This document shows positions 36,467 through 52,436 of a stretch of DNA of 64,000 bases, piece after piece (position 1 is the first letter of the stretch; every line of letters starts with the position of its first letter). Below the pieces are notes generated by a model. It was not told the DNA's origin and made no database searches. It saw nothing but the letters and a program-made list of their open reading frames with translations. The stretch covers positions 1,960-65,959 of the forward strand of contig SICP01000004.1 in the NCBI GenBank assembly GCA_009691415.1. The letters run 5' to 3'. Origin of the DNA: Candidatus Margulisiibacteriota bacterium. Its GTDB lineage: Bacteria > Margulisbacteria > Marinamargulisbacteria > SXXA01 > SICP01. The position numbers and the translations under genes were made by a program.

Positions 36467-36886
36467 TCAACTCCTCACCATCAAAACCGGAACCACAACA
36501 CTGTGCCGAACTTTATCTGCTGTACTACCATAAATAAAATCCGCAATAATGCCGTGTCCATGTGTCGACATCGCAATCAAATCTACGTGATACGCTTTAG
36601 ACAATTTAATAATTTCTTGAGACGGCTCACCCGTAGCTAAAAAATACTCAACAGAAAACCCTTCATTAATAAGGCTATCTGACTGCATTTTAAGATAAAG
36701 TTTATCCGCTTTCATTTCTTCACTCTCAGCCAAATGTAAGCGCTGAAAATTGCGTGCAGCCCACCCATCTGCAACATGCACCAATACCAATGCCGCACCG
36801 GTTAGCTTAGCAAGCGGACGAATATGGTCTAGTACAGCTTGATCTGCTGATGAATTCTCAAGTGGTATTAGTATTTTTTTATACAT
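36467..36886 (-). CDS. Universal stress protein (UspA family)
   Basis: 139 aa. KKILIPLENS..., LVLVHV... and STHGHG.... 8-nt overlap with mntH. Confidence 0.85.
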   Translation of the reverse strand: MYKKILIPLENSSADQAVLDHIRPLAKLTGAALVLVHVADGWAARNFQRLHLAESEEMKADKLYLKMQSDSLINEGFSVEYFLATGEPSQEIIKLSKAYHVDLIAMSTHGHGIIADFIYGSTADKVRHSVVVPVLMVRS

Positions 36887-38234
36887 GAAGAAACTCTCCC
36901 AATTTGCCCCATAAAAACTGAAGATTCAATCCTACTATAATAATCGCCGTACCCCAAGCCAATACCTTAATCCACAGTGGATTTGTAAATTCGCCCATCT
37001 TTGCCCGTTCGCTCGTAAAGTGAATAAGTGGAATAACCGCGAAACTCAATTGCATACTTAAAATAACTTGACTCCAAACCAACAAGTCCATTGTATGACC
37101 TTCGCCATAAACCAAAATAACACCTACGGCAGGTACAATCGCAATAAGTCGAGTAAGTAATCTTCGCAGCCATGGCCGAAGGCGAATGTTTAAAAACCCC
37201 TCCATGACAATCTGACCCGCCAATGTCCCCGTCAATGTAGAATTTTGTCCTGATGCCAATAGCGCCACTGCAAACAGTGTACTCGCAATGGCGACGCCTA
37301 CGAGTGGACTTAATAGCTTATAGGCATCTTGAATTTCGGCAACTCCATGATGCCCTGAATTATGAAATACGGCAGCGGCCATAACCAAAATACCGCCATT
37401 GATAAACAGAGCAAACATCAACGCCAAGGTCGAATCTATCGTTGCAAACTTAATGGCCTCTCGTTTCCCTTCAGGAGTTTGTTCTACACGCCTCGTCTGC
37501 ACAATGGACGAGTGCAAATATAAGTTATGAGGCATGACGGTAGCCCCTAAAATCCCAATGGCAATGAACAACATATTTTTGTTATGCATAATATCAGAGT
37601 GGGGGACAAAACCTTGTAAAACCAACCCTATATCGGGCTTAGCATACAACAATTCCAAAGCAAAGCACCCACCTATGGTGACGATTAGCGTAATAACAAT
37701 GGCCTCAATATACCGAAACCCTTTATTTTGAAGCCACAACACGATCATGACATCCAAACTCGTAATCACACAGCCCCACACGAGTGGAATGCCGAACAAT
37801 AACTGAAGCCCAATCGCAGAACCCACCACCTCCGCCAAATCACACGCAGAAATTGCTAGCTCACATAAAACCCATAATAACCAGACAACGGGCTTAGAAT
37901 AATGATCTCGACACGCCTGTGCCAAATCTCTCCCCGAAACAATGCCCAACTTTACACACAAATGTTGCAGCAAAATAGCCATCACATTAGAAAGTAAAAT
38001 AACCCACAACAACGAATAGCCATACTGTGCACCGCCCGCCAAATCCGTCGCCCAATTGCCAGGATCCATATATCCCACTGCTACTAAAAATCCAGGGCCA
38101 GAAAACGCCAACATCTTACGCCAAAACGACATATTGGCACCCACAGGAATACTATGGTGCACTTCAGAAAGAGAAGCTGTTTCACTTTCTTGTCGCCATC
38201 CCAAGTACTTTTGGTTTTTGCCAAAAAAGTTCAT
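36879..38234 (-). CDS. mntH: Nramp-family divalent metal (Mn2+/Fe2+) transporter
   Basis: 451 aa. GPGFLVAVGYMDPGNWATDL and ATVMPHNLYLHS motifs. Confidence 0.93.
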   Translation of the reverse strand: MNFFGKNQKYLGWRQESETASLSEVHHSIPVGANMSFWRKMLAFSGPGFLVAVGYMDPGNWATDLAGGAQYGYSLLWVILLSNVMAILLQHLCVKLGIVSGRDLAQACRDHYSKPVVWLLWVLCELAISACDLAEVVGSAIGLQLLFGIPLVWGCVITSLDVMIVLWLQNKGFRYIEAIVITLIVTIGGCFALELLYAKPDIGLVLQGFVPHSDIMHNKNMLFIAIGILGATVMPHNLYLHSSIVQTRRVEQTPEGKREAIKFATIDSTLALMFALFINGGILVMAAAVFHNSGHHGVAEIQDAYKLLSPLVGVAIASTLFAVALLASGQNSTLTGTLAGQIVMEGFLNIRLRPWLRRLLTRLIAIVPAVGVILVYGEGHTMDLLVWSQVILSMQLSFAVIPLIHFTSERAKMGEFTNPLWIKVLAWGTAIIIVGLNLQFLWGKLGEFLHV

Positions 38235-38254
38235 AAATATAATCCTCTCGAAAG

Positions 38255-38270
38255 TTTAAGCATACTTAAA
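38255..38270. promoter_or_regulatory. Palindrome upstream of mntH, candidate MntR operator
   Basis: tttaag-cata-cttaaa (6-4-6 inverted repeat) lies 21-36 nt upstream of the mntH start. The sequence is AT-rich, so chance occurrence is possible. Confidence 0.3.
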
Positions 38271-38317
38271 TAACATGGAATATTAAACAAGAAACACATA
38301 CCTTGCAAGAAATATTT

Positions 38318-39256
38318 TTATCTAATAAAAAAAGGAACAAACCACTGAAACAAAATCCCCGAACATACAGCAAGCACTACATGAGTCACAATATACAAAA
38401 CGGTAGGCCTCATACCCAAAACTTTTTTAGCTAAAATAATAGTTGGAATCCCTGTCCCAACAGAAGTCACCATAAAACAAAAAACGGGACCTGTGGGCAT
38501 ACCCAATTTAAGCAAAGAAAAAATAATGGGCACTTCTTCACCCGCACACGCGTGAAAAGGAAGTCCACATAATATAGCAATGCCATAAGACAATACCTGA
38601 GAATGACTCATGTATGATTGCATTAACGTTTCAGGCAAAAGCGTCATCACCAAACTGGCAACAACAAGAGCAAGAATCAAATAGGGCCCTAGAGTCGATG
38701 CGATGCGAAATACACTGGCCAAAAACGAGGGACGCGCTTCCTGAACAGCAGAAACATCACCATGATGATGATAATGCGCGTGTGCGGGATTATGACAGGT
38801 ATGATCAGGCAATGGGGGAGGGGACCAAGCAAAACCTTGTACACCCATATCTTGCAAGAAATTAAAAAGGTATCCCAAAATAAGTGCCGAACATAAAGCA
38901 AAGATTAAGTGCCCAACAACAAATGAAAGTCCCAACAAACTATAAGTCAGCATTAATGAATATAACCATGAAAACGGTGTGATCATGAGAAGCGCAACAA
39001 TGACGCCGATGCGCGCACCCTTTGCCTTAAGTGCTTGCGCGATAGGCATAGACGTACAAGAACATAGGGGCAATAACATGCCTATAAAACAAGCTGCCAA
39101 AACCGATTGAGATTTATTTTGAAAATAGGACAGAAGCTTAGAAGAATCCAAACGCGAATCTAAAAAAGCTCCCACCAAAATACTAATCGCAAAGAAAGGG
39201 AGAATGTCTTTAGCTAAATGAGAAAGTTCATGAAAAAATAAACCAAAAAAATGCAT
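38318..39256 (-). CDS. Permease-family (ArsP/DUF318-like) membrane protein with a His-rich loop, probable metal transporter
   Basis: 312 aa with about 8 TM helices. Cys pair LPLCSCTS. Central loop PDHTCHNPAHAHYHHHGD. Confidence 0.55.
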   Translation of the reverse strand: MHFFGLFFHELSHLAKDILPFFAISILVGAFLDSRLDSSKLLSYFQNKSQSVLAACFIGMLLPLCSCTSMPIAQALKAKGARIGVIVALLMITPFSWLYSLMLTYSLLGLSFVVGHLIFALCSALILGYLFNFLQDMGVQGFAWSPPPLPDHTCHNPAHAHYHHHGDVSAVQEARPSFLASVFRIASTLGPYLILALVVASLVMTLLPETLMQSYMSHSQVLSYGIAILCGLPFHACAGEEVPIIFSLLKLGMPTGPVFCFMVTSVGTGIPTIILAKKVLGMRPTVLYIVTHVVLAVCSGILFQWFVPFFIR

Positions 39257-44079: not shown

Positions 44080-45933
44080 ATGAATAAAAAAAGCAGCATA
44101 CTCGCATTCCTATTACTAGGAGCGATCACAACCTATGCAGACACACAAGTCACACTTCCCACCGTCTATGTCACCGCCGCAAAATACCAACAAAGCGCAA
44201 CTGATAATACCAAAGTCGTTGAATCAATTACCGGGGAAACACTCCGAACATTGGGCGTTATTTCTGTTCAAGAAGCACTCTCACTATTTTCAAACATTCA
44301 CGTAGTAAATGCCTCAGGCGTACAAAGTGTCTTTATGCAAGGAGTGGGGTCAAATCAAGTTAAAATTTTATTAGATGGCGTCACGCTAAAAGATCCAACG
44401 ACACCTCAAGGCACGCCCTTAATCAATCACATCGACATTGATTATATAGACCGAATTGAAATCGTATCAGGTGGCCAAAGTACATTGTACGGTTCTGGCG
44501 CAATGGCCGGAGTCATCAACATCCTCACCAAAAAAAATACAGAAAAAAACATTCTACTACAAACAGCTATTAAGGGGCCCCACGACCGAGCCGGATTTAG
44601 TTATGGCCAAGATATTGCCGGCTACTTATTCTCTTTATCTGCAAAGCTGGACAATGATAGGTCTCATTCTGCCATACAAGGATTGGCAGAAAAAGACGAA
44701 GTAAAAGCCCACTCCCTACAAGTAGCACTGAACAAAGAGTTGCCAATAGGAAACCTAGATCTTACTTATAGACAACATCGGGTTGAAGAAGGCTTAGATT
44801 ATAATAACAACTTTAGCCCTCTTTATGACGACCCCAATAACACCTCTACTACACAACAAAATACAACGTTCGCCAAATGGTCACTGCCATGGAAAGACAA
44901 CACCACCAACCTTATATTTACAGCATCATATACATCTAGACATGCAATTAATTTGGCAGACTCTGGGTCCTCTAGTTTTTCTGATGATATGCATACAGGG
45001 CAAACCAGAAGCATCGACTTTCAAAATATTTTCAAATTAGAAACGGATCACACCATATTAATTGGCCTAGAACACTCACATGAAAACGGATCATTTAAGA
45101 GTAACTACAATGGATTTACAGATACACTTACAAATAAAAATCTAGACACCCTAAGTACCTATTCACAATGGGAATGGCGCAATCCAATGGTTACATCTGT
45201 TATTGGAGGACGATATGAATCTTTCGGAAATAAACATGTCAACACCTACGATTTAAGTTTTTCTAAAGAAATCATTCCTAGCGTGATCACAAAATACAAT
45301 GCAAGTTCTGGACATCGTGAACCGTCCTTATACGAAGCGTATGCCCAAGATGCCTACACTATTAACAACCCAAATCTAACAGCAGAAAATTCCTATAGCA
45401 GACAATATTCTATTTCTCATGCCATCAATAATTTTGAATACGGTGCAACCATTTTCGAACAAGATGTCTACAACAAAATTACCTATGTCACCATTAATCC
45501 AACCCTCTTTACAAGTAGCTATAAAAATATTGCCGGTAAAACAAAATCCAGAGGAACCAACTACCACATCAAAGCCTTTCAACTACCGTATCTCTCTTAT
45601 CTTTTATTAGGATATACGCACACCCATTCAAAAAATACAGACGGAACCCCCACACTAAGAATTCCCAAAAACGAACTCTCTCTTTCTGCCGTCATACCAA
45701 TAGGAAAATTAACAACCGGAATCACCTTGAAATACAGAGGGGAAATTCAGGATACAACGACTAAAAAAGCAAAAGAATATACCGTCATCGATACGCATAT
45801 GACCTACAAACTCACCTCGACTCTACAGGCCAATATCACCGTTTACAATTTGCAAGACAACAAGTATTTTCCGCTGAATAACTACCAAGTATCAGGCAGA
45901 GAAATTCTCGCAGGGGTTACTTACTCGTTTTGA
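44080..45933 (+). CDS. btuB: TonB-dependent outer-membrane receptor, probable cobalamin receptor
   Basis: 617 aa. Signal peptide, TonB-box-like TLPTVYVTA, plug domain (IEIVSGGQSTLYGSGAMAGVINI) and C-terminal ...AGVTYSF. Length and riboswitch context fit BtuB. Confidence 0.75.
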   Translation: MNKKSSILAFLLLGAITTYADTQVTLPTVYVTAAKYQQSATDNTKVVESITGETLRTLGVISVQEALSLFSNIHVVNASGVQSVFMQGVGSNQVKILLDGVTLKDPTTPQGTPLINHIDIDYIDRIEIVSGGQSTLYGSGAMAGVINILTKKNTEKNILLQTAIKGPHDRAGFSYGQDIAGYLFSLSAKLDNDRSHSAIQGLAEKDEVKAHSLQVALNKELPIGNLDLTYRQHRVEEGLDYNNNFSPLYDDPNNTSTTQQNTTFAKWSLPWKDNTTNLIFTASYTSRHAINLADSGSSSFSDDMHTGQTRSIDFQNIFKLETDHTILIGLEHSHENGSFKSNYNGFTDTLTNKNLDTLSTYSQWEWRNPMVTSVIGGRYESFGNKHVNTYDLSFSKEIIPSVITKYNASSGHREPSLYEAYAQDAYTINNPNLTAENSYSRQYSISHAINNFEYGATIFEQDVYNKITYVTINPTLFTSSYKNIAGKTKSRGTNYHIKAFQLPYLSYLLLGYTHTHSKNTDGTPTLRIPKNELSLSAVIPIGKLTTGITLKYRGEIQDTTTKKAKEYTVIDTHMTYKLTSTLQANITVYNLQDNKYFPLNNYQVSGREILAGVTYSF

Positions 45934-49601: not shown

Positions 49602-49995
49602 TTTAGAAACCATCAACGAAAACTGTAAAAAAACAGTCGCCAATCATCTTGGTATCGTCTTTACAGAAGTAGGCCCCAACTTCCTCATCGCAAGCATGCC
49701 CGTAGACCAACGCACCATACAACCCGCTGGCATTTTAAGCGGTGGTGCAACCTTGGCTCTCGCTGAAACCGTTGGAAGCGTCGCCGCCCTCATGGCCGTA
49801 GACAACGAGACAACCTGTGTAGGATTAGAAATGAACGCCAATCATCTCCACTCAATCAAAGAAGGTTTTGTATTTGCCAAAGCGAGTGTATTTCATATTG
49901 GGAAAATGACACAAGTTTGGCAAATAAAAGTTAATGGAGCAGACGGAAAATTAATTTCTATCTGCCGACTTACATTAGCAAATTTAGCGATTTAA
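49576..49995 (+). CDS. PaaI/YbdB-type hotdog-fold thioesterase
   Basis: 139 aa. ...QPAGILSGGATLALAETVGS... is typical of the family. Confidence 0.8.
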   Translation: MAIWKKETNLETINENCKKTVANHLGIVFTEVGPNFLIASMPVDQRTIQPAGILSGGATLALAETVGSVAALMAVDNETTCVGLEMNANHLHSIKEGFVFAKASVFHIGKMTQVWQIKVNGADGKLISICRLTLANLAI

Positions 49996-50409
49996 AATCT
50001 CGTCTAAACTCAATTTTCCAGCACCATAAAAAACCAAAATCCCAAACATAACCAAATAGCTCCACTCTTGTAAGCCAAAAATATCCCAGATGCGATGCAC
50101 TTCAGCCAACTCAGCAGTAATGATAGCCACAACCATCGTTGAAGCAAGTAATGCCGCAAACAAACGTGTTCCTAATCCTAAAATAAGAGCAATACCACCT
50201 ACAAATTCAAGAGTAGAAATAAAGATCGCGTTGTAGTAAGGAAACGGTATGCCTAGCAATTCAAAAAACATCGTTACATCAGATAAATGATGAAGCTTTG
50301 CCCAGCCTGTCTGAATAAAAATAACAGCCAATGTCAAACGCAATAAAAATATCCAACTAGCTGTACCTTTATTTAGTAAACCAAAAACTTTTTTGATTAT
50401 TACAGTCAC
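49984..50409 (-). CDS. DoxX-family membrane protein, last gene of the MNIO operon
   Basis: The ORF track begins at 50457. GTG 50409 overlaps the upstream TGA (GTGA) and follows GGGGA, giving VTVIIKKVFGLLNK... with four TM helices. RLTLAVIFIQTGWAKL is DoxX-like. Confidence 0.75.
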   Translation of the reverse strand: MTVIIKKVFGLLNKGTASWIFLLRLTLAVIFIQTGWAKLHHLSDVTMFFELLGIPFPYYNAIFISTLEFVGGIALILGLGTRLFAALLASTMVVAIITAELAEVHRIWDIFGLQEWSYLVMFGILVFYGAGKLSLDEILNR

Positions 50410-51125
50410 GATATTTCCCCTTCTGATTTTTGACACAATAATCCATATTGTATACAAAAAGAAAACAAAGCTTCAATCTCTTTCGTACACAATGCCGTAC
50501 TAATGTGATCAAACGCAAGATCTAACGACGTTCCATTTTGAAGTTGTTGTAACAAATCCTTGAAAACTCTAGGTATCATTTTTTCCTGTACTTTAGAATC
50601 ATGTCGATAAATCAGTCGAAATTGTTTTTTATAAGAAACAAGTTGAACATGTGGCTGAAACTGCAACACAATTTTCATTAAGTCGTCTTTAGAAAAAAGA
50701 GAAGGATCAAGTAATGGTAGTTGAGGAGCAAAAAAACACCAGGCCCTAGCCCATTCATAATCAACAGTTTCTAAAACAGTTTTTTTATTTTTCTGATGAT
50801 ATCTATTTCTCAAAAAATAAGGAAATCGGTTGCCGAGATAAAATAAACTAAAATGCTGTGACCTATAGCTCTGCAAATATTCTTCAGCTAATTTATATAA
50901 AACGTCTTCACCTAAATAAGCCTGAAGAATAGGGAAATCTTCAATCAATGCATCCAAAATTCTAGCCCAATAATCATCCGCATAAATATCCAAACGTTCG
51001 GCCGGCGTTAACGTCTTCGAAGGTTTAATATGAATAGTCGCATTCAAATTTTTTTGCACAATAGAGGCCGTAATATCTACCTGAATTTGAACTAAAAATA
51101 CAGGTGGACTTGGGTTAGATACCAT
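50406..51125 (-). CDS. DUF2063-family protein (MNIO partner, BufC/MbnC-like role)
   Basis: 239 aa. ...RLDIYADDYWARILDALIEDFP... is typical of the DUF2063 N-domain. 11-nt overlap with the MNIO gene. Confidence 0.75.
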   Translation of the reverse strand: MVSNPSPPVFLVQIQVDITASIVQKNLNATIHIKPSKTLTPAERLDIYADDYWARILDALIEDFPILQAYLGEDVLYKLAEEYLQSYRSQHFSLFYLGNRFPYFLRNRYHQKNKKTVLETVDYEWARAWCFFAPQLPLLDPSLFSKDDLMKIVLQFQPHVQLVSYKKQFRLIYRHDSKVQEKMIPRVFKDLLQQLQNGTSLDLAFDHISTALCTKEIEALFSFCIQYGLLCQKSEGEIS

Positions 51126-51963
51126 GTGGTTTCATCACATCATCATAAATAGATTTTGCAAAAGCTAATTCTGAAAGAAGATCGGGAAGGGGAGGGATAT
51201 GATCATCTCGCTCCAACATCAGAGAGACTTGGTCAAAAAGAGGAATGGTCTTACGATACAAGTCCCAAACATCCTGTTGAATTTCATGATCATGAGTATC
51301 CAAAATATACTTGCCTTTATCATCATGGCCCGCAATATGATACTGAACCACACGATCTTTTGGTACATTTCGCATATACTCCATTGGATCAAAATGATGG
51401 TTTTGTGAAGAAACAAATACATTATTTACATCCAATAAAATACCGCAATCAGCCGTTTCTACAATCTCCGTCAAGAAATCCCATTCCGTCATAGTAGACG
51501 TTTCAAATTCTAAATAACTAGACACATTTTCTAAGATAAAAGGCTTTTCAACAAAATCTTGTACAATACGCACACGCTCAGCAACATACTTCGCGACTTC
51601 GGATGTATAGGGGAGCGGCATTAAATTATGAAGATTTGTACCACCAGACGAACCCCAACAAAGATGATCTGAAAACCATGGCGTATCAAGCTTTTTCACT
51701 AAGTTTTTAAGCCGTTTTAAATAATCCATATTAAGAGAATCAGAACTGCCAATAGAGAGCGAAACACCATGAGGCACAACCTTGTAGCGTTCCATAATTT
51801 GATCTAAGTAATAAAGGGGTCTAGCAGATTCCAATAGGAAATTCTCGGAAATAATTTCGAGCCAATCTACTTCAGGCGAAGTAGCTATGAAATCCTCGAA
51901 ATGGATTGTGCGCAGACCAAGGCCAAAACCTAAATAAGGAAGAGAGGAAAATTTTATTGTCAT
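51115..51963 (-). CDS. Multinuclear non-heme iron oxidase (MNIO, DUF692/UPF0276 family)
   Basis: 282 aa. GLGLRTIH, WLEIISENF, HGVSLSIGS, WFSDHLCW, ILENVSSYLEF, LLDVNNVFV, YHIAGH, LDTHDH, LERDD. Confidence 0.9.
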   Translation of the reverse strand: MTIKFSSLPYLGFGLGLRTIHFEDFIATSPEVDWLEIISENFLLESARPLYYLDQIMERYKVVPHGVSLSIGSSDSLNMDYLKRLKNLVKKLDTPWFSDHLCWGSSGGTNLHNLMPLPYTSEVAKYVAERVRIVQDFVEKPFILENVSSYLEFETSTMTEWDFLTEIVETADCGILLDVNNVFVSSQNHHFDPMEYMRNVPKDRVVQYHIAGHDDKGKYILDTHDHEIQQDVWDLYRKTIPLFDQVSLMLERDDHIPPLPDLLSELAFAKSIYDDVMKPHGI

Positions 51964-51978
51964 TATCGTTTAAAATTC

Positions 51979-52008
51979 CAAAAAAAATGGCGGAATCGAA
52001 ATTCCACC
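51979..52008 (-). terminator. Intrinsic terminator/attenuator between the precursor and MNIO genes
   Basis: The minus strand reads ggtggaat-TTCG-attccgcc (8-bp stem, UUCG tetraloop) followed by a, then eight T. It lies in the 74-nt gap between the precursor stop (52038) and the MNIO start (51963). Confidence 0.7.
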
Positions 52009-52037
52009 ATCTGATTTAATAAGCAACTAAAAATTAT

Positions 52038-52325
52038 TTAGTGAGCTTTTTTTTCTGAAGATTTGCAGCTAGCTTCTTTCTTTTCTGCTGTATTTTTTGA
52101 TTTGCATGAAGCTTTACCTTTGCATGCAGCTTCTTTTGCTACTGCGTTTCCTGTAGAAACTGTTGCTGCTTTTTTTACTTTTTTAGAATGTTTTTTTGCT
52201 GCTGATTTAGCTGTTTTCGCTGTTGCTGATTCATCTGCTTTAACTTCTTCAGCAAATGTTCCTACTGCTAGGTTTGCAACAAATAGTCCAGCTACTGCTG
52301 CTGTTAATAGTGCTTTCTTGTTCAT
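52038..52325 (-). CDS. Secreted Lys/Ala-rich three-Cys peptide, putative RiPP precursor for the MNIO system
   Basis: 95 aa. AAGGAG lies 6 nt before the ATG. Signal peptide MNKKALLTAAVAGLFVANLAVGTFA. The core has no aromatic residues and three Cys in the contexts EAACKGK, KASCKSK and EASCKSS. Confidence 0.7.
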   Translation of the reverse strand: MNKKALLTAAVAGLFVANLAVGTFAEEVKADESATAKTAKSAAKKHSKKVKKAATVSTGNAVAKEAACKGKASCKSKNTAEKKEASCKSSEKKAH

Positions 52326-52436
52326 TTGTATCTCCTTAAATTTAATATAGTCTAGTTTAAAACCAAACTCTTAACCAAAAAGATACCATGAAAAAATCAG
52401 TCGATCAAACAAGTGTTTCATGATTAAATTAAATAT

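What the first reader, a model, noticed from the sequence alone, without database searches (positions are those of the whole stretch)
49984..52325. MNIO (DUF692)-DUF2063-DoxX operon led by an unrecognised Lys/Ala-rich three-Cys secreted peptide, a candidate new precursor class of bufferin/Hvf-type RiPP metallophores
Seen in sequence:
- Four co-directional minus-strand genes have coupled junctions: an 11-nt overlap at 51115-51125, and a GTGA stop/start overlap at 50406-50409.
- The first gene (52325 to 52038) has a strong SD and encodes a Sec-type signal peptide, then an aromatic-free Lys/Ala/Ser/Glu-rich core. The core has exactly three Cys, all in one local context ([AS][AS]CK[GS]: EAACKGK, KASCKSK, EASCKSS).
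- The second gene carries essentially every DUF692/MNIO hallmark. The third is DUF2063-like and the fourth is DoxX.
Established knowledge: MNIO plus DUF2063-type partner pairs oxidatively rewrite Cys in ribosomal peptides. Known examples are methanobactins, Caulobacter bufferins (precursors of the DUF2282 or 6/12-Cys type, with a DoxX gene) and Haemophilus HvfA with EGKCG repeats.
Inference: this locus makes a periplasmic Cys-derived heterocycle or thioamide peptide, probably metal-binding. Its precursor fits none of the motif classes I know, so the product, and perhaps the recognition sequence, may be new.
Basis: partly seen in the sequence, partly recalled or inferred. Interest (0 to 1): 0.85.

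Follow-up and report, generated by a model that had tools for sequence, protein, structure and literature searches.

The report
Bufferin-type copper-peptide operon, minimal precursor
This is an ordinary bufferin/captophorin-type gene cluster from an uncultured Margulisbacteria genome; its small secreted three-cysteine peptide matches no curated family model but belongs to the already described "Cys-Lys" class of precursors, so it is a new member, not a new class.

Summary
Four co-directional minus-strand genes encode a 95-aa signal-peptide precursor with three Cys, an MNIO, a DUF2063 partner and DoxX. The MNIO passes NCBIfam's BufB equivalog cut-off (335.8 vs 310 bits). The claim of a new precursor class does not hold. 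Gadgil et al. 2026 ("captophorins") sort MNIO-partner precursors into DUF2282, Lys-Cys repeat (EGKCG) and Cys-Lys groups. This peptide has three Cys-Lys dyads, the 5-mer ASCKS twice and 3.2% Cys. Its MNIO has the reported Cys-Lys signature: Asp254, not Phe, after the catalytic Asp253. The closest MNIOs (56-64% identity, mostly candidate-phylum MAGs) sit beside signal-peptide precursors made of [G/S/A]-C-K-G-x-x hexads. The window peptide is a three-unit, Lys/Ala-rich version with no aromatic residues. It hits no Pfam or NCBIfam precursor model and has about three detectable sequence relatives among 1.84 billion representative proteins. The most likely product is a periplasmic peptide with up to three Cys-derived 5-thiooxazoles that binds copper; this is inferred and untested. 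Modest extras are a conserved terminator-like hairpin after the precursor gene, a signal-peptide motif (A-[AS]-[LVI]-A-G-[LIVM]) specific to this precursor subgroup, and DoxX co-occurrence. Interest is low to moderate.

The parts
52387..52422 (.). Inverted repeat CATGAAA-N22-TTTCATG in the divergent intergenic region between the GNAT gene and the precursor gene. It is a possible operator. It is short and AT-rich and was not tested.
   Evidence: The L007 orthologue has a matching pair, AACATGGAAA-N20-TTTTCATGTT, at the same place.
52332..52337 (-). Shine-Dalgarno sequence AAGGAG, 6 nt upstream of the precursor ATG.
   Evidence: Read directly from the sequence. Conserved in L007.
52038..52325 (-). 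bufA-like precursor gene (95 aa). The Sec-type signal peptide is aa 1-25 (nt 52325-52251). The Lys/Ala-rich core is aa 26-95. The Cys codons are C68 (52124-52122), C74 (52106-52104) and C87 (52067-52065), each followed by Lys and then Gly or Ser.
   Evidence: Orthologue P0001 keeps all three Cys. Relatives carry CKGxxx hexad repeats. No Pfam or NCBIfam precursor model is hit.
51985..52012 (-). Intrinsic-terminator-like hairpin (12-pair stem, TTCG loop, T8 tail) between the precursor and MNIO genes. It is a probable attenuator that gives more precursor than enzyme transcript (inferred).
   Evidence: It is conserved in L007 with two one-sided, pair-keeping changes, G-U to A-U and A-U to G-U.
51115..51963 (-). 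bufB-like MNIO (282 aa). Putative iron ligands and the catalytic Asp253 are conserved. Asp254 marks the Cys-Lys substrate type.
   Evidence: Pfam PF05114, E = 8e-104. NCBIfam MNIO_BufB 335.8 bits against a cut-off of 310; HvfB 264 against 360. 3BWW alignment. Column counts over 81 MNIOs.
50406..51125 (-). bufC-like partner protein (239 aa) with an N-terminal DUF2063 domain and a divergent C-terminal half. It overlaps the MNIO gene by 11 nt.
   Evidence: Pfam PF09836, E = 5e-16. NCBIfam HvfC gives only 37 bits against a cut-off of 142. A profile of 25 partners hits PDB 3DEE at E = 1.7e-4 over residues 27-225. A partner gene directly follows the MNIO gene in 75 of 80 related loci.
49984..50409 (-). 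bufD/HvfX-like DoxX membrane protein (141 aa). Its GTG start overlaps the partner's TGA stop.
   Evidence: Pfam DoxX, E = 1.5e-19. NCBIfam HvfX family 71.5 bits against a cut-off of 80. Hydrophobic segments.

Best explanation
This is a bufABCD-like (bufferin/captophorin) biosynthetic operon of a Candidatus Margulisbacteria MAG.

Proposed sequence of events:
1. The 95-aa peptide is made in excess. A strong Shine-Dalgarno sequence and a leaky terminator hairpin placed before the enzyme genes would favour this.
2. In the cytoplasm the MNIO-partner heterodimer uses O2 and its multi-iron centre to oxidise up to three Cys by four electrons each. Each Cys sits in a small-residue-Cys-Lys-Gly/Ser context, and the product is a 5-thiooxazole.
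3. The Lys after each Cys is read by Asp254, next to the catalytic Asp253.
4. The Sec signal peptide then takes the peptide to the periplasm and is cleaved after TFA25.
5. A ~70-aa, polycationic, unfolded peptide remains. Its thiooxazole thiolates (C68 and C74 as a pair five residues apart, plus C87 and possibly the C-terminal His) chelate copper and buffer it.
6. DoxX is an accessory membrane protein and is not needed for the modification.

Shown here: gene content and order, family membership of the enzyme, conservation of the Cys and their context, and the Cys-Lys-type active-site residue.

Inferred from characterised homologues: the chemistry, the number of Cys modified, copper binding, and the roles of the hairpin and of DoxX.
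For: - The MNIO passes the BufB equivalog cut-off.
- Conserved His/Asp/Glu/Asn columns H65, H100, E145, D178, N181, H209, D222, H224, E251 and D253 are near-invariant in 81 MNIOs. They align with MbnB and 3BWW.
- LERD253-D254 contrasts with LERDF in the Lys-Cys-type 3BWW. Asp occupies this column in 55 of 81 relatives and Phe in none. This matches the Phe-to-Asp rule of Gadgil et al. for Cys-Lys MNIOs and their modelled Lys-Asp contact.
- The R18-T19 pair contrasts with RR in 3BWW. I read this against one search's account of FonB Arg15/Arg16 in Lys-Cys enzymes.
- The order precursor-MNIO-partner(-DoxX) is kept in the orthologous MAGs and in relatives.
- The Cys and their CK[GS] context are conserved and non-random.
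- In 19 related unfolded CK-type precursors, 85 of 131 consecutive Cys pairs (tally) are exactly 5 residues apart. Position +1 is most often Lys and position +2 most often Gly.
- In Caulobacter Buf1 and Buf2 the central Cys are converted to 5-thiooxazoles by BufB and BufC. The products bind copper in the periplasm after Sec export, and DoxX is dispensable (PMC11626156).
- 5-thiooxazole chemistry was generalised to HvfA, NgoA and FonA by PMC13097082.
Against: - There are no experimental data for any unfolded CK-repeat precursor.
- The peptide fails the BufA2 model, and it has 3 Cys rather than 6, with no disulfide-stapled fold.
- The partner fails NCBIfam's HvfC cut-off (37 vs 142 bits). Its C-terminal RRE-like domain is supported only by a profile hit to 3DEE at E = 1.7e-4; the AlphaFold model was unusable (pLDDT 40).
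- No copper-responsive regulator, cop/cue gene or SigF/NrsF pair lies nearby.
- The signal-peptide cleavage site is predicted by eye only.
- Whether C87, which is separated by a 12-residue spacer in this genome, is modified is unknown.
Confidence: 0.75

Rival explanations
1. The cluster and chemistry are the same, but the physiological role is not copper buffering. The thiooxazole peptide might handle another thiophilic metal or a redox or oxidant stress, or its polycationic tail might give it an envelope-associated role.
For: - There are no copper genes or copper regulators near the operon, whereas Nramp, an ArsP-like permease and a TonB-dependent receptor lie within 6-15 kb.
- Antoine et al. 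note MerC fusions and likely roles in other metal stresses.
- The Lys/Ala-rich half of the peptide (net charge about +11) has no counterpart in characterised bufferins.
Against: - Every characterised member (Buf1, Buf2, oxazolin/HvfA, fontiphorin) is linked to copper.
- The nearby transporters are separated from the operon by housekeeping genes (BipA, DHODH) and are not co-oriented with it.
Confidence: 0.15
2. One reading: a genuinely new precursor class whose recognition sequence and/or post-translational modification differ from those of bufferins and oxazolins.
For: - No curated HMM matches the peptide.
- Only about three sequence relatives turn up among 1.84 billion representative proteins, and one in the word-indexed search.
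- The partner protein is highly divergent.
- The signal-peptide motif A[AS][LVI]AG[LIVM] occurs in 10 of 19 CK-type unfolded precursors and in 0 of 44 Buf2-fold precursors.
Against: - The MNIO is a BufB equivalog.
- The Cys context C-K-G/S is the same one found in Buf2-type cores, and Buf2's central Cys are the modified ones.
- The Cys-Lys group, its repeat ORFs and its MNIO signature are already published.
- The low sequence-search yield is expected for a short, low-complexity, fast-evolving peptide.
Confidence: 0.08
3. The 95-aa ORF is a bystander: a secreted Lys-rich protein that is not the MNIO substrate. The real substrate would be encoded elsewhere.
For: Some bufferin precursors are encoded away from MNIO genes. 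The peptide has only 3 Cys.
Against: - A signal-peptide, CK-rich small ORF lies directly upstream of the MNIO gene in most related loci across several phyla.
- The Cys are invariant while the rest of the peptide drifts.
- No other ORF with two or more CK[GS] motifs exists in the window.
Confidence: 0.02

Closest known systems
Bufferin 2 system of Caulobacter vibrioides (BufA2/BufB2/BufC2; BUF_6/12Cys; NCBIfam NF050166 and NF050167). This is the 'Cys-Lys' captophorin group of Gadgil et al. 2026.
   Same: - The MNIO is a BufB-class enzyme and passes the equivalog cut-off.
- A DUF2063 partner gene lies directly downstream.
- The precursor carries a Sec signal peptide.
- The target Cys are followed by Lys-Gly.
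- The MNIO has Asp after the catalytic Asp.
- The predicted product is 5-thiooxazoles that bind copper in the periplasm.
   Different: - The peptide fails the BufA2 HMM (no hit at E <= 1).
- It has 3 Cys, not 6 or 12.
- It lacks the flanking disulfide pair and the C-terminal G[FW]V...C..GG fold.
- Its mature part is Lys/Ala-rich and free of aromatic residues, so it is probably unfolded.
- This cluster has a DoxX gene; the Caulobacter buf2 cluster has none.
- The host is a Margulisbacteria MAG, not a member of the Pseudomonadota.
Bufferin 1 system (BufA1 = DUF2282, bufABCD with DoxX)
   Same: The four-gene architecture A-B-C-DoxX, Sec export, and MNIO plus DUF2063 chemistry on Cys.
   Different: The peptide has no DUF2282 match. 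There is no SigF/NrsF regulator pair nearby. The peptide does not have the four-Cys folded mini-protein form.
HvfA/oxazolin, gonophorin and fontiphorin (Buf_EGKCG; 'Lys-Cys' group) with HvfB, HvfC and HvfX
   Same: A repetitive, largely unstructured Cys-containing core made of short repeats. The MNIO-partner-DoxX gene set. A thiooxazole copper-binding product.
   Different: - The register is reversed: the Cys is followed by Lys here, rather than preceded by it, and the peptide has no KC dyad.
- The repeat is a hexad rather than a pentad.
- The MNIO has Asp254 where the Lys-Cys-type 3BWW has Phe.
- It has R18-T19 where 3BWW has Arg-Arg.
- It scores below the HvfB cut-off (264 vs 360 bits).
- FonBC did not process a NACKG substrate.
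Unclassified signal-peptide ORFs with 1-18 Cys that precede mega-cluster MNIOs (Antoine et al. 2025, Table S2), and the 'CxxxxC' family
   Same: A small ORF with a signal peptide and Cys, directly upstream of a bufferin-clade MNIO, with no family signature. This is the bin the peptide falls into in that survey.
   Different: The Cys spacing here is C-x5-C and C-x12-C, not CxxxxC. No Lactamase_B_2 gene is present. The authors' HMMs could not be run here.

Membership tests
Bufferin/captophorin BGC (MNIO-PME1 cluster) | MNIO of the BufB/HvfB clade | tested here: met
   NCBIfam MNIO_BufB scores 335.8 bits against a cut-off of 310. Pfam PF05114 gives E = 8e-104.
Bufferin/captophorin BGC (MNIO-PME1 cluster) | Conserved multi-iron ligands and the catalytic Asp | tested here: met
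   H65, H100, E145, D178, N181, H209, D222, H224, E251 and D253 are near-invariant in 81 aligned MNIOs and align to 3BWW and MbnB. The assignment of these residues as ligands rests on published MbnB structures and is recalled, not recomputed.
Bufferin/captophorin BGC (MNIO-PME1 cluster) | Partner protein with a DUF2063 domain plus a C-terminal RRE-like domain, encoded directly after the MNIO | tested here: inconclusive
   The N-terminal DUF2063 domain is clear (E = 5e-16) and the position is right (11-nt overlap). The full-length relationship to PME1 structure 3DEE is seen only with a 25-sequence profile (E = 1.7e-4, residues 27-225). NCBIfam HvfC gives 37 bits against 142. The AlphaFold model was unusable (pLDDT 40).
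Bufferin/captophorin BGC (MNIO-PME1 cluster) | Cys-containing precursor with an N-terminal export signal, encoded directly upstream of the MNIO | tested here: met
   The arrangement is conserved in the orthologue and in relatives. The signal peptide was judged by hydropathy and by the TFA|EE cleavage motif only.
Bufferin/captophorin BGC (MNIO-PME1 cluster) | Cys converted to 5-thiooxazole, and copper binding by the product | not testable with these tools
   This needs co-expression, mass spectrometry, NMR and metal titration.
Cys-Lys precursor group (Gadgil et al. 2026) | At least 2 Cys, at least 2.5% Cys, and a repeated Cys-containing 5-mer with a Cys-Lys dyad | tested here: met
   The peptide has 3 Cys in 95 aa (3.2%), 3 CK and 0 KC dyads, and ASCKS twice. 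The authors' own Dataset S2 was not available to check whether the peptide is listed there.
Cys-Lys precursor group (Gadgil et al. 2026) | The cognate MNIO has Asp instead of Phe at the FonB-250 position | tested here: met
   The window has LERD253-D254 and 3BWW has LERDF. Across relatives the column is Asp in 55 of 81, Ala in 15, Glu in 6, Gly in 5 and Phe in 0. The rule is quoted.
BufA2 / BUF_6/12Cys (NCBIfam NF050166) | Match to the BufA2 model; 6 or 12 conserved Cys with a disulfide-stapled fold | tested here: not met
   There is no hit at E <= 1. Positive controls from related loci score 74-80 bits, and hexad-repeat relatives score only 12-27 bits against a cut-off of 60. The peptide has 3 Cys, and no aromatic, Leu, Ile or Met residues in its mature part.
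BufA1 / DUF2282 | Match to the Pfam DUF2282 model; four conserved Cys | tested here: not met
   There is no Pfam hit other than a chance-level DUF7266 match (E = 0.024).
HvfA / Buf_EGKCG (oxazolin, Lys-Cys group) | Repeated EGKCG pentads (Lys before Cys) and an HvfB-type MNIO with Phe after the catalytic Asp | tested here: not met
   The peptide has no KC dyad and no EGKCG. HvfB scores 264 bits against a cut-off of 360. The MNIO has Asp254.
CxxxxC precursor family (Antoine et al. 2025) | Conserved CxxxxC motif, often with a Lactamase_B_2 gene in the cluster | tested here: not met
   The Cys spacings are 5 and 12 residues, and there is no Lactamase_B_2 neighbour. This was a motif-level test only, because the authors' HMM was not available.

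The most novel reading that the evidence does not exclude
The unfolded CK-hexad precursors, including this minimal three-Cys one, together with their MNIO clade and a co-occurring DoxX gene, may form a distinct and experimentally untouched captophorin subfamily. It is found mainly in candidate phyla: Margulisbacteria, UBP8-labelled MAGs and other unclassified MAGs.

In this subfamily, copper sites would be built from thiooxazole pairs five residues apart on a disordered polycationic chain, rather than inside a mini-protein fold.

The unusually conserved signal-peptide h-region, A-[AS]-[LVI]-A-G-[LIVM], would double as the element recognised by the divergent partner protein. This motif is also present on the twin-arginine-type signals of some relatives.
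Probability: 0.25. Interest if true: 0.45.

Novelty: new member of a known kind. Interest (0 to 1): 0.27.

Why it matters
The finding extends bufferin/captophorin clusters to a Margulisbacteria lineage and documents a near-minimal precursor: three Cys on a disordered Lys-rich chain. That could make it a convenient small substrate for studying how Cys-Lys-type MNIOs choose their Cys.

It also independently supports the published Phe/Asp specificity rule on sequences outside the Pseudomonadota-dominated training set.

It opens no new biology. The enzyme class, the chemistry, the export route and the precursor category are all already described.

Tried and rejected
1. Sequence searches with the peptide.
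- The word-indexed search of 5.8 billion proteins found one homologue.
- The full HMMER search of 1.84 billion representatives with a two-sequence profile found 3 hits.
- A 13-sequence profile found 16 hits, all unnamed or 'hypothetical'.
- This shows the peptide is an orphan at sequence level. It does not speak against class membership, because the peptide is short and low in complexity.

2. AlphaFold2 of the partner protein from 4 close homologues gave pLDDT 40, which is unusable, so no fold search was run.

3. AlphaFold2 of the peptide gave pLDDT 50, with only the signal-peptide helix above 65. This is compatible with disorder but weak, because the alignment had only two sequences.

4. phmmer of the partner against PDB sequences found nothing. 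Only the 25-sequence profile reached 3DEE.

5. Searching the supplements of Antoine et al. for the strings CKGK, CKSK and CKGA found nothing. Searching those of Gadgil et al. for CKGK found nothing. No peptide carrying these strings appears in the held text.

6. The sigma-70 promoter scan found no site upstream of the precursor gene.

7. A literature search on 'UBP8/UBA817' returned only yeast Ubp8 papers.

8. P0006, the next-closest peptide, sits on a 728-bp contig, so no gene context could be obtained.

9. I considered a lipoprotein and rejected it: there is no lipobox Cys in the signal peptide.

10. I considered the CxxxxC family and rejected it on Cys spacing.


Full report
**Observation**

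- a 95-aa peptide at 52325-52038;
- a 282-aa MNIO at 51963-51115;
- a 239-aa partner at 51125-50406, overlapping the MNIO gene by 11 nt;
- a 141-aa DoxX from the GTG at 50409 to 49984, giving the GTGA overlap.

Gene callers on the same contig use these boundaries. An AAGGAG sequence sits 6 nt before the peptide's ATG.

The peptide begins MNKKALLTAAVAGLFVANLAVGTFA|EE. Its 70-aa remainder has 19 Lys, 16 Ala and no aromatic residue. Its three Cys lie in the contexts AACKGK, ASCKSK and ASCKSS. In 200,000 shuffles of the mature peptide, all three Cys fell in CK[GS] 12 times and in [AS]CK[GS] never. The pattern is therefore not a by-product of composition.

**Family assignments**

- The MNIO covers the whole Pfam MbnB_TglH_ChrH model (E = 8e-104). 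It passes NCBIfam's BufB equivalog cut-off (335.8 vs 310 bits) but not HvfB's (264 vs 360).
- The partner has a clear DUF2063 N-terminal domain (E = 5e-16). It scores only 37 bits on HvfC against a cut-off of 142.
- DoxX is clear in Pfam and just below the HvfX cut-off (71.5 vs 80 bits).
- The peptide hits nothing meaningful in Pfam or NCBIfam. Positive controls from related loci reach 74-80 bits on the BufA2 model.

**Source organism and conservation**

NCBI labels the identical MNIO and partner proteins (MSR88371.1, MSR88370.1) as coming from a Candidatus Margulisbacteria MAG.

A 76%-identical peptide, P0001 (88 aa), lies in a fully syntenic locus of a MAG labelled 'bacterium UBP8_UBA817'. 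The first 31 residues, signal peptide included, are identical. All three Cys are kept as ASCKGK, SGCKSK and ATCKSS. The only indel is an in-frame 7-codon difference between Cys 2 and Cys 3. In the orthologue the three Cys form a regular C-x5-C-x5-C hexad array.

**Relatives**

I scanned one genome per GTDB species with the MNIO. This returned 277 relatives, of which 80 were kept.

The closest MNIOs (56-64% identity) come from unclassified candidate-phylum MAGs, a Marinamargulisbacteria MAG and a second UBP8_UBA817 MAG. Each is preceded by a signal-peptide ORF built from tandem [G/S/A]-C-K-G-x-x hexads with 2-8 Cys. An example is NSCKGKNGCKGKEACKGKEGCKGKHSCKGK.

Across the 19 unfolded CK-type peptides of this kind (2-17 Cys), 85 of 131 consecutive Cys pairs (tally) are exactly five residues apart. 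Position +1 is most often Lys and position +2 most often Gly.

More distant MNIOs (50-57% identity, mostly Gammaproteobacteria) sit next to typical 6- or 12-Cys Buf2-fold precursors. These carry the same local CKG motif.

On a rough neighbour-joining tree, the MNIOs that neighbour unfolded CK-type peptides group apart from those that neighbour Buf2-fold precursors. A partner gene follows the MNIO in 75 of 80 loci. A DoxX gene follows in only 9 loci, all of the unfolded CK type.

**Comparison with the literature**

- Leprevost et al. 2024 (PMC11626156) showed that BufB and BufC convert the central Cys of Buf1 and Buf2 into 5-thiooxazoles. The products are Sec-exported and bind copper. DoxX and the signal peptide are dispensable for the modification.
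- Antoine et al. 2025 (PMC12452194) defined the Buf1, Buf2, Buf_EGKCG and CxxxxC precursor families. They also reported hundreds of further small signal-peptide ORFs with 1-18 Cys in front of MNIOs of the same mega-cluster, as probable new precursors.
- Gadgil et al. 2026 (PMC13097082) unified these systems as 'captophorins' with three precursor categories: DUF2282, Lys-Cys pentad repeats, and multiple Cys-Lys motifs. Their Table S2 lists 1,172 BGCs with Cys-Lys repeat ORFs and 2,681 with other Cys-rich ORFs. They found that Cys-Lys MNIOs carry Asp where FonB has Phe250, next to the catalytic Asp249. FonBC did not process a NACKG substrate.

**Testing the published rule here**

The window MNIO reads LERD253-D254, whereas the Lys-Cys-type structure 3BWW reads LERDF. 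The window has R18-T19 where 3BWW has RR. Among 81 aligned MNIOs the 254 column is Asp in 55 and Phe in none.

By Gadgil's stated criteria the peptide counts as a Cys-Lys precursor: 3.2% Cys, ASCKS twice, three CK and no KC dyads.

The narrower statement, that no curated model recognises the peptide, is true.

**Mechanism**

The most likely course is modification in the cytoplasm by the MNIO-partner pair on the Cys of the CK[GS] units, followed by Sec export, cleavage after residue 25, and copper chelation in the periplasm by a disordered polycationic peptide. C68 and C74 are the invariant pair in the 13-sequence alignment.

The gene order, the enzyme family, the active-site residues and the Cys conservation are shown here. 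The chemistry, the number of sites and the metal are inferred from homologues.

A 12-pair hairpin with a T8 tail lies between the peptide and MNIO genes. It is conserved in the orthologue with two pair-keeping changes. It probably sets a high ratio of precursor to enzyme transcript.

**Weak points**

- The partner's C-terminal domain is supported only by a profile hit to 3DEE (E = 1.7e-4).
- Both AlphaFold runs had shallow alignments and low confidence.
- No copper regulator or copper-efflux gene lies nearby.
- No unfolded CK-repeat precursor has been characterised in the literature I could search.

**Verdict**

This is a real bufferin/captophorin cluster of a known kind. It has a sequence-orphan, near-minimal member of the known Cys-Lys precursor group, in an under-sampled phylum.

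The mildly new points are:
- the signal-peptide motif specific to this subgroup (10 of 19 unfolded CK-type precursors against 0 of 44 Buf2-fold precursors);
- the DoxX association;
- the twin-arginine-type signals on some relatives.

Noticed in passing
L020, L034, L046, L049, L070 (peptide ORFs upstream of the MNIO match): CK-repeat precursors in Planctomycetota, Acidobacteriota and unclassified MAGs begin with twin-arginine-like N-termini (MNRREFxxxL, KRRDFSKL, DRRDFNKL). This suggests Tat rather than Sec export. The main text of the three key papers mentions neither 'Tat' nor 'twin-arginine'.
   Followed up: partly
L009:1469-3097: A single 542-aa ORF matches both the MNIO and the DUF2063 partner, so it looks like an MNIO-partner fusion. 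It was not checked for an assembly frameshift.
   Followed up: no
L007, L010-L013, L015, L016, L026, L073 compared with the other related loci: A DoxX gene follows the partner gene in only 9 of 80 related loci. All 9 have unfolded CK-type precursors, and none of the Buf2-fold loci has one.
   Followed up: partly
window 52251-52325 (signal peptide) and the N-termini of the L007-L016, L046, L070 and L073 peptides: The signal-peptide h-region motif A-[AS]-[LVI]-A-G-[LIVM] is conserved, mostly in register (residues 9-14), across MNIO clades that are only ~60% identical. It occurs in 10 of 19 unfolded CK-type precursors and in 0 of 44 Buf2-fold precursors. It may be a recognition element as well as an export signal.
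   Followed up: partly
window 52038-52046; C-termini of the L007, L009 and L010 peptides: Four precursors from different MAGs end in Ala-His (EKKAH, EKKAH, NEAH, KAAH). This may be an extra metal ligand at the C-terminus.
   Followed up: no
window 52387-52422: An inverted repeat, CATGAAA-N22-TTTCATG, lies in the divergent promoter region and has a counterpart in L007. It could be an operator or could be chance in AT-rich DNA.
   Followed up: partly
P0015, P0017, P0019-P0021, L015:1161-1394: A separate, well-conserved ~85-aa precursor family, HACKGxNSCKGxGGCAxEGKNACKGxNACKGxGGCATDGSK, with an MKKNKI signal peptide. Its members are unnamed in all sources.
   Followed up: no
window 36879-39256 and 44080-45933: An Nramp transporter, an ArsP-like permease and a TonB-dependent receptor lie 4-13 kb from the operon. 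They are separated from it by housekeeping genes, and no copper-specific genes were seen.
   Followed up: partly
Peptides of L010, L011, L012, L027 and P0020: These give sub-threshold hits (13-20 bits against a cut-off of 28) to Pfam DUF7640, a family I could not place.
   Followed up: no
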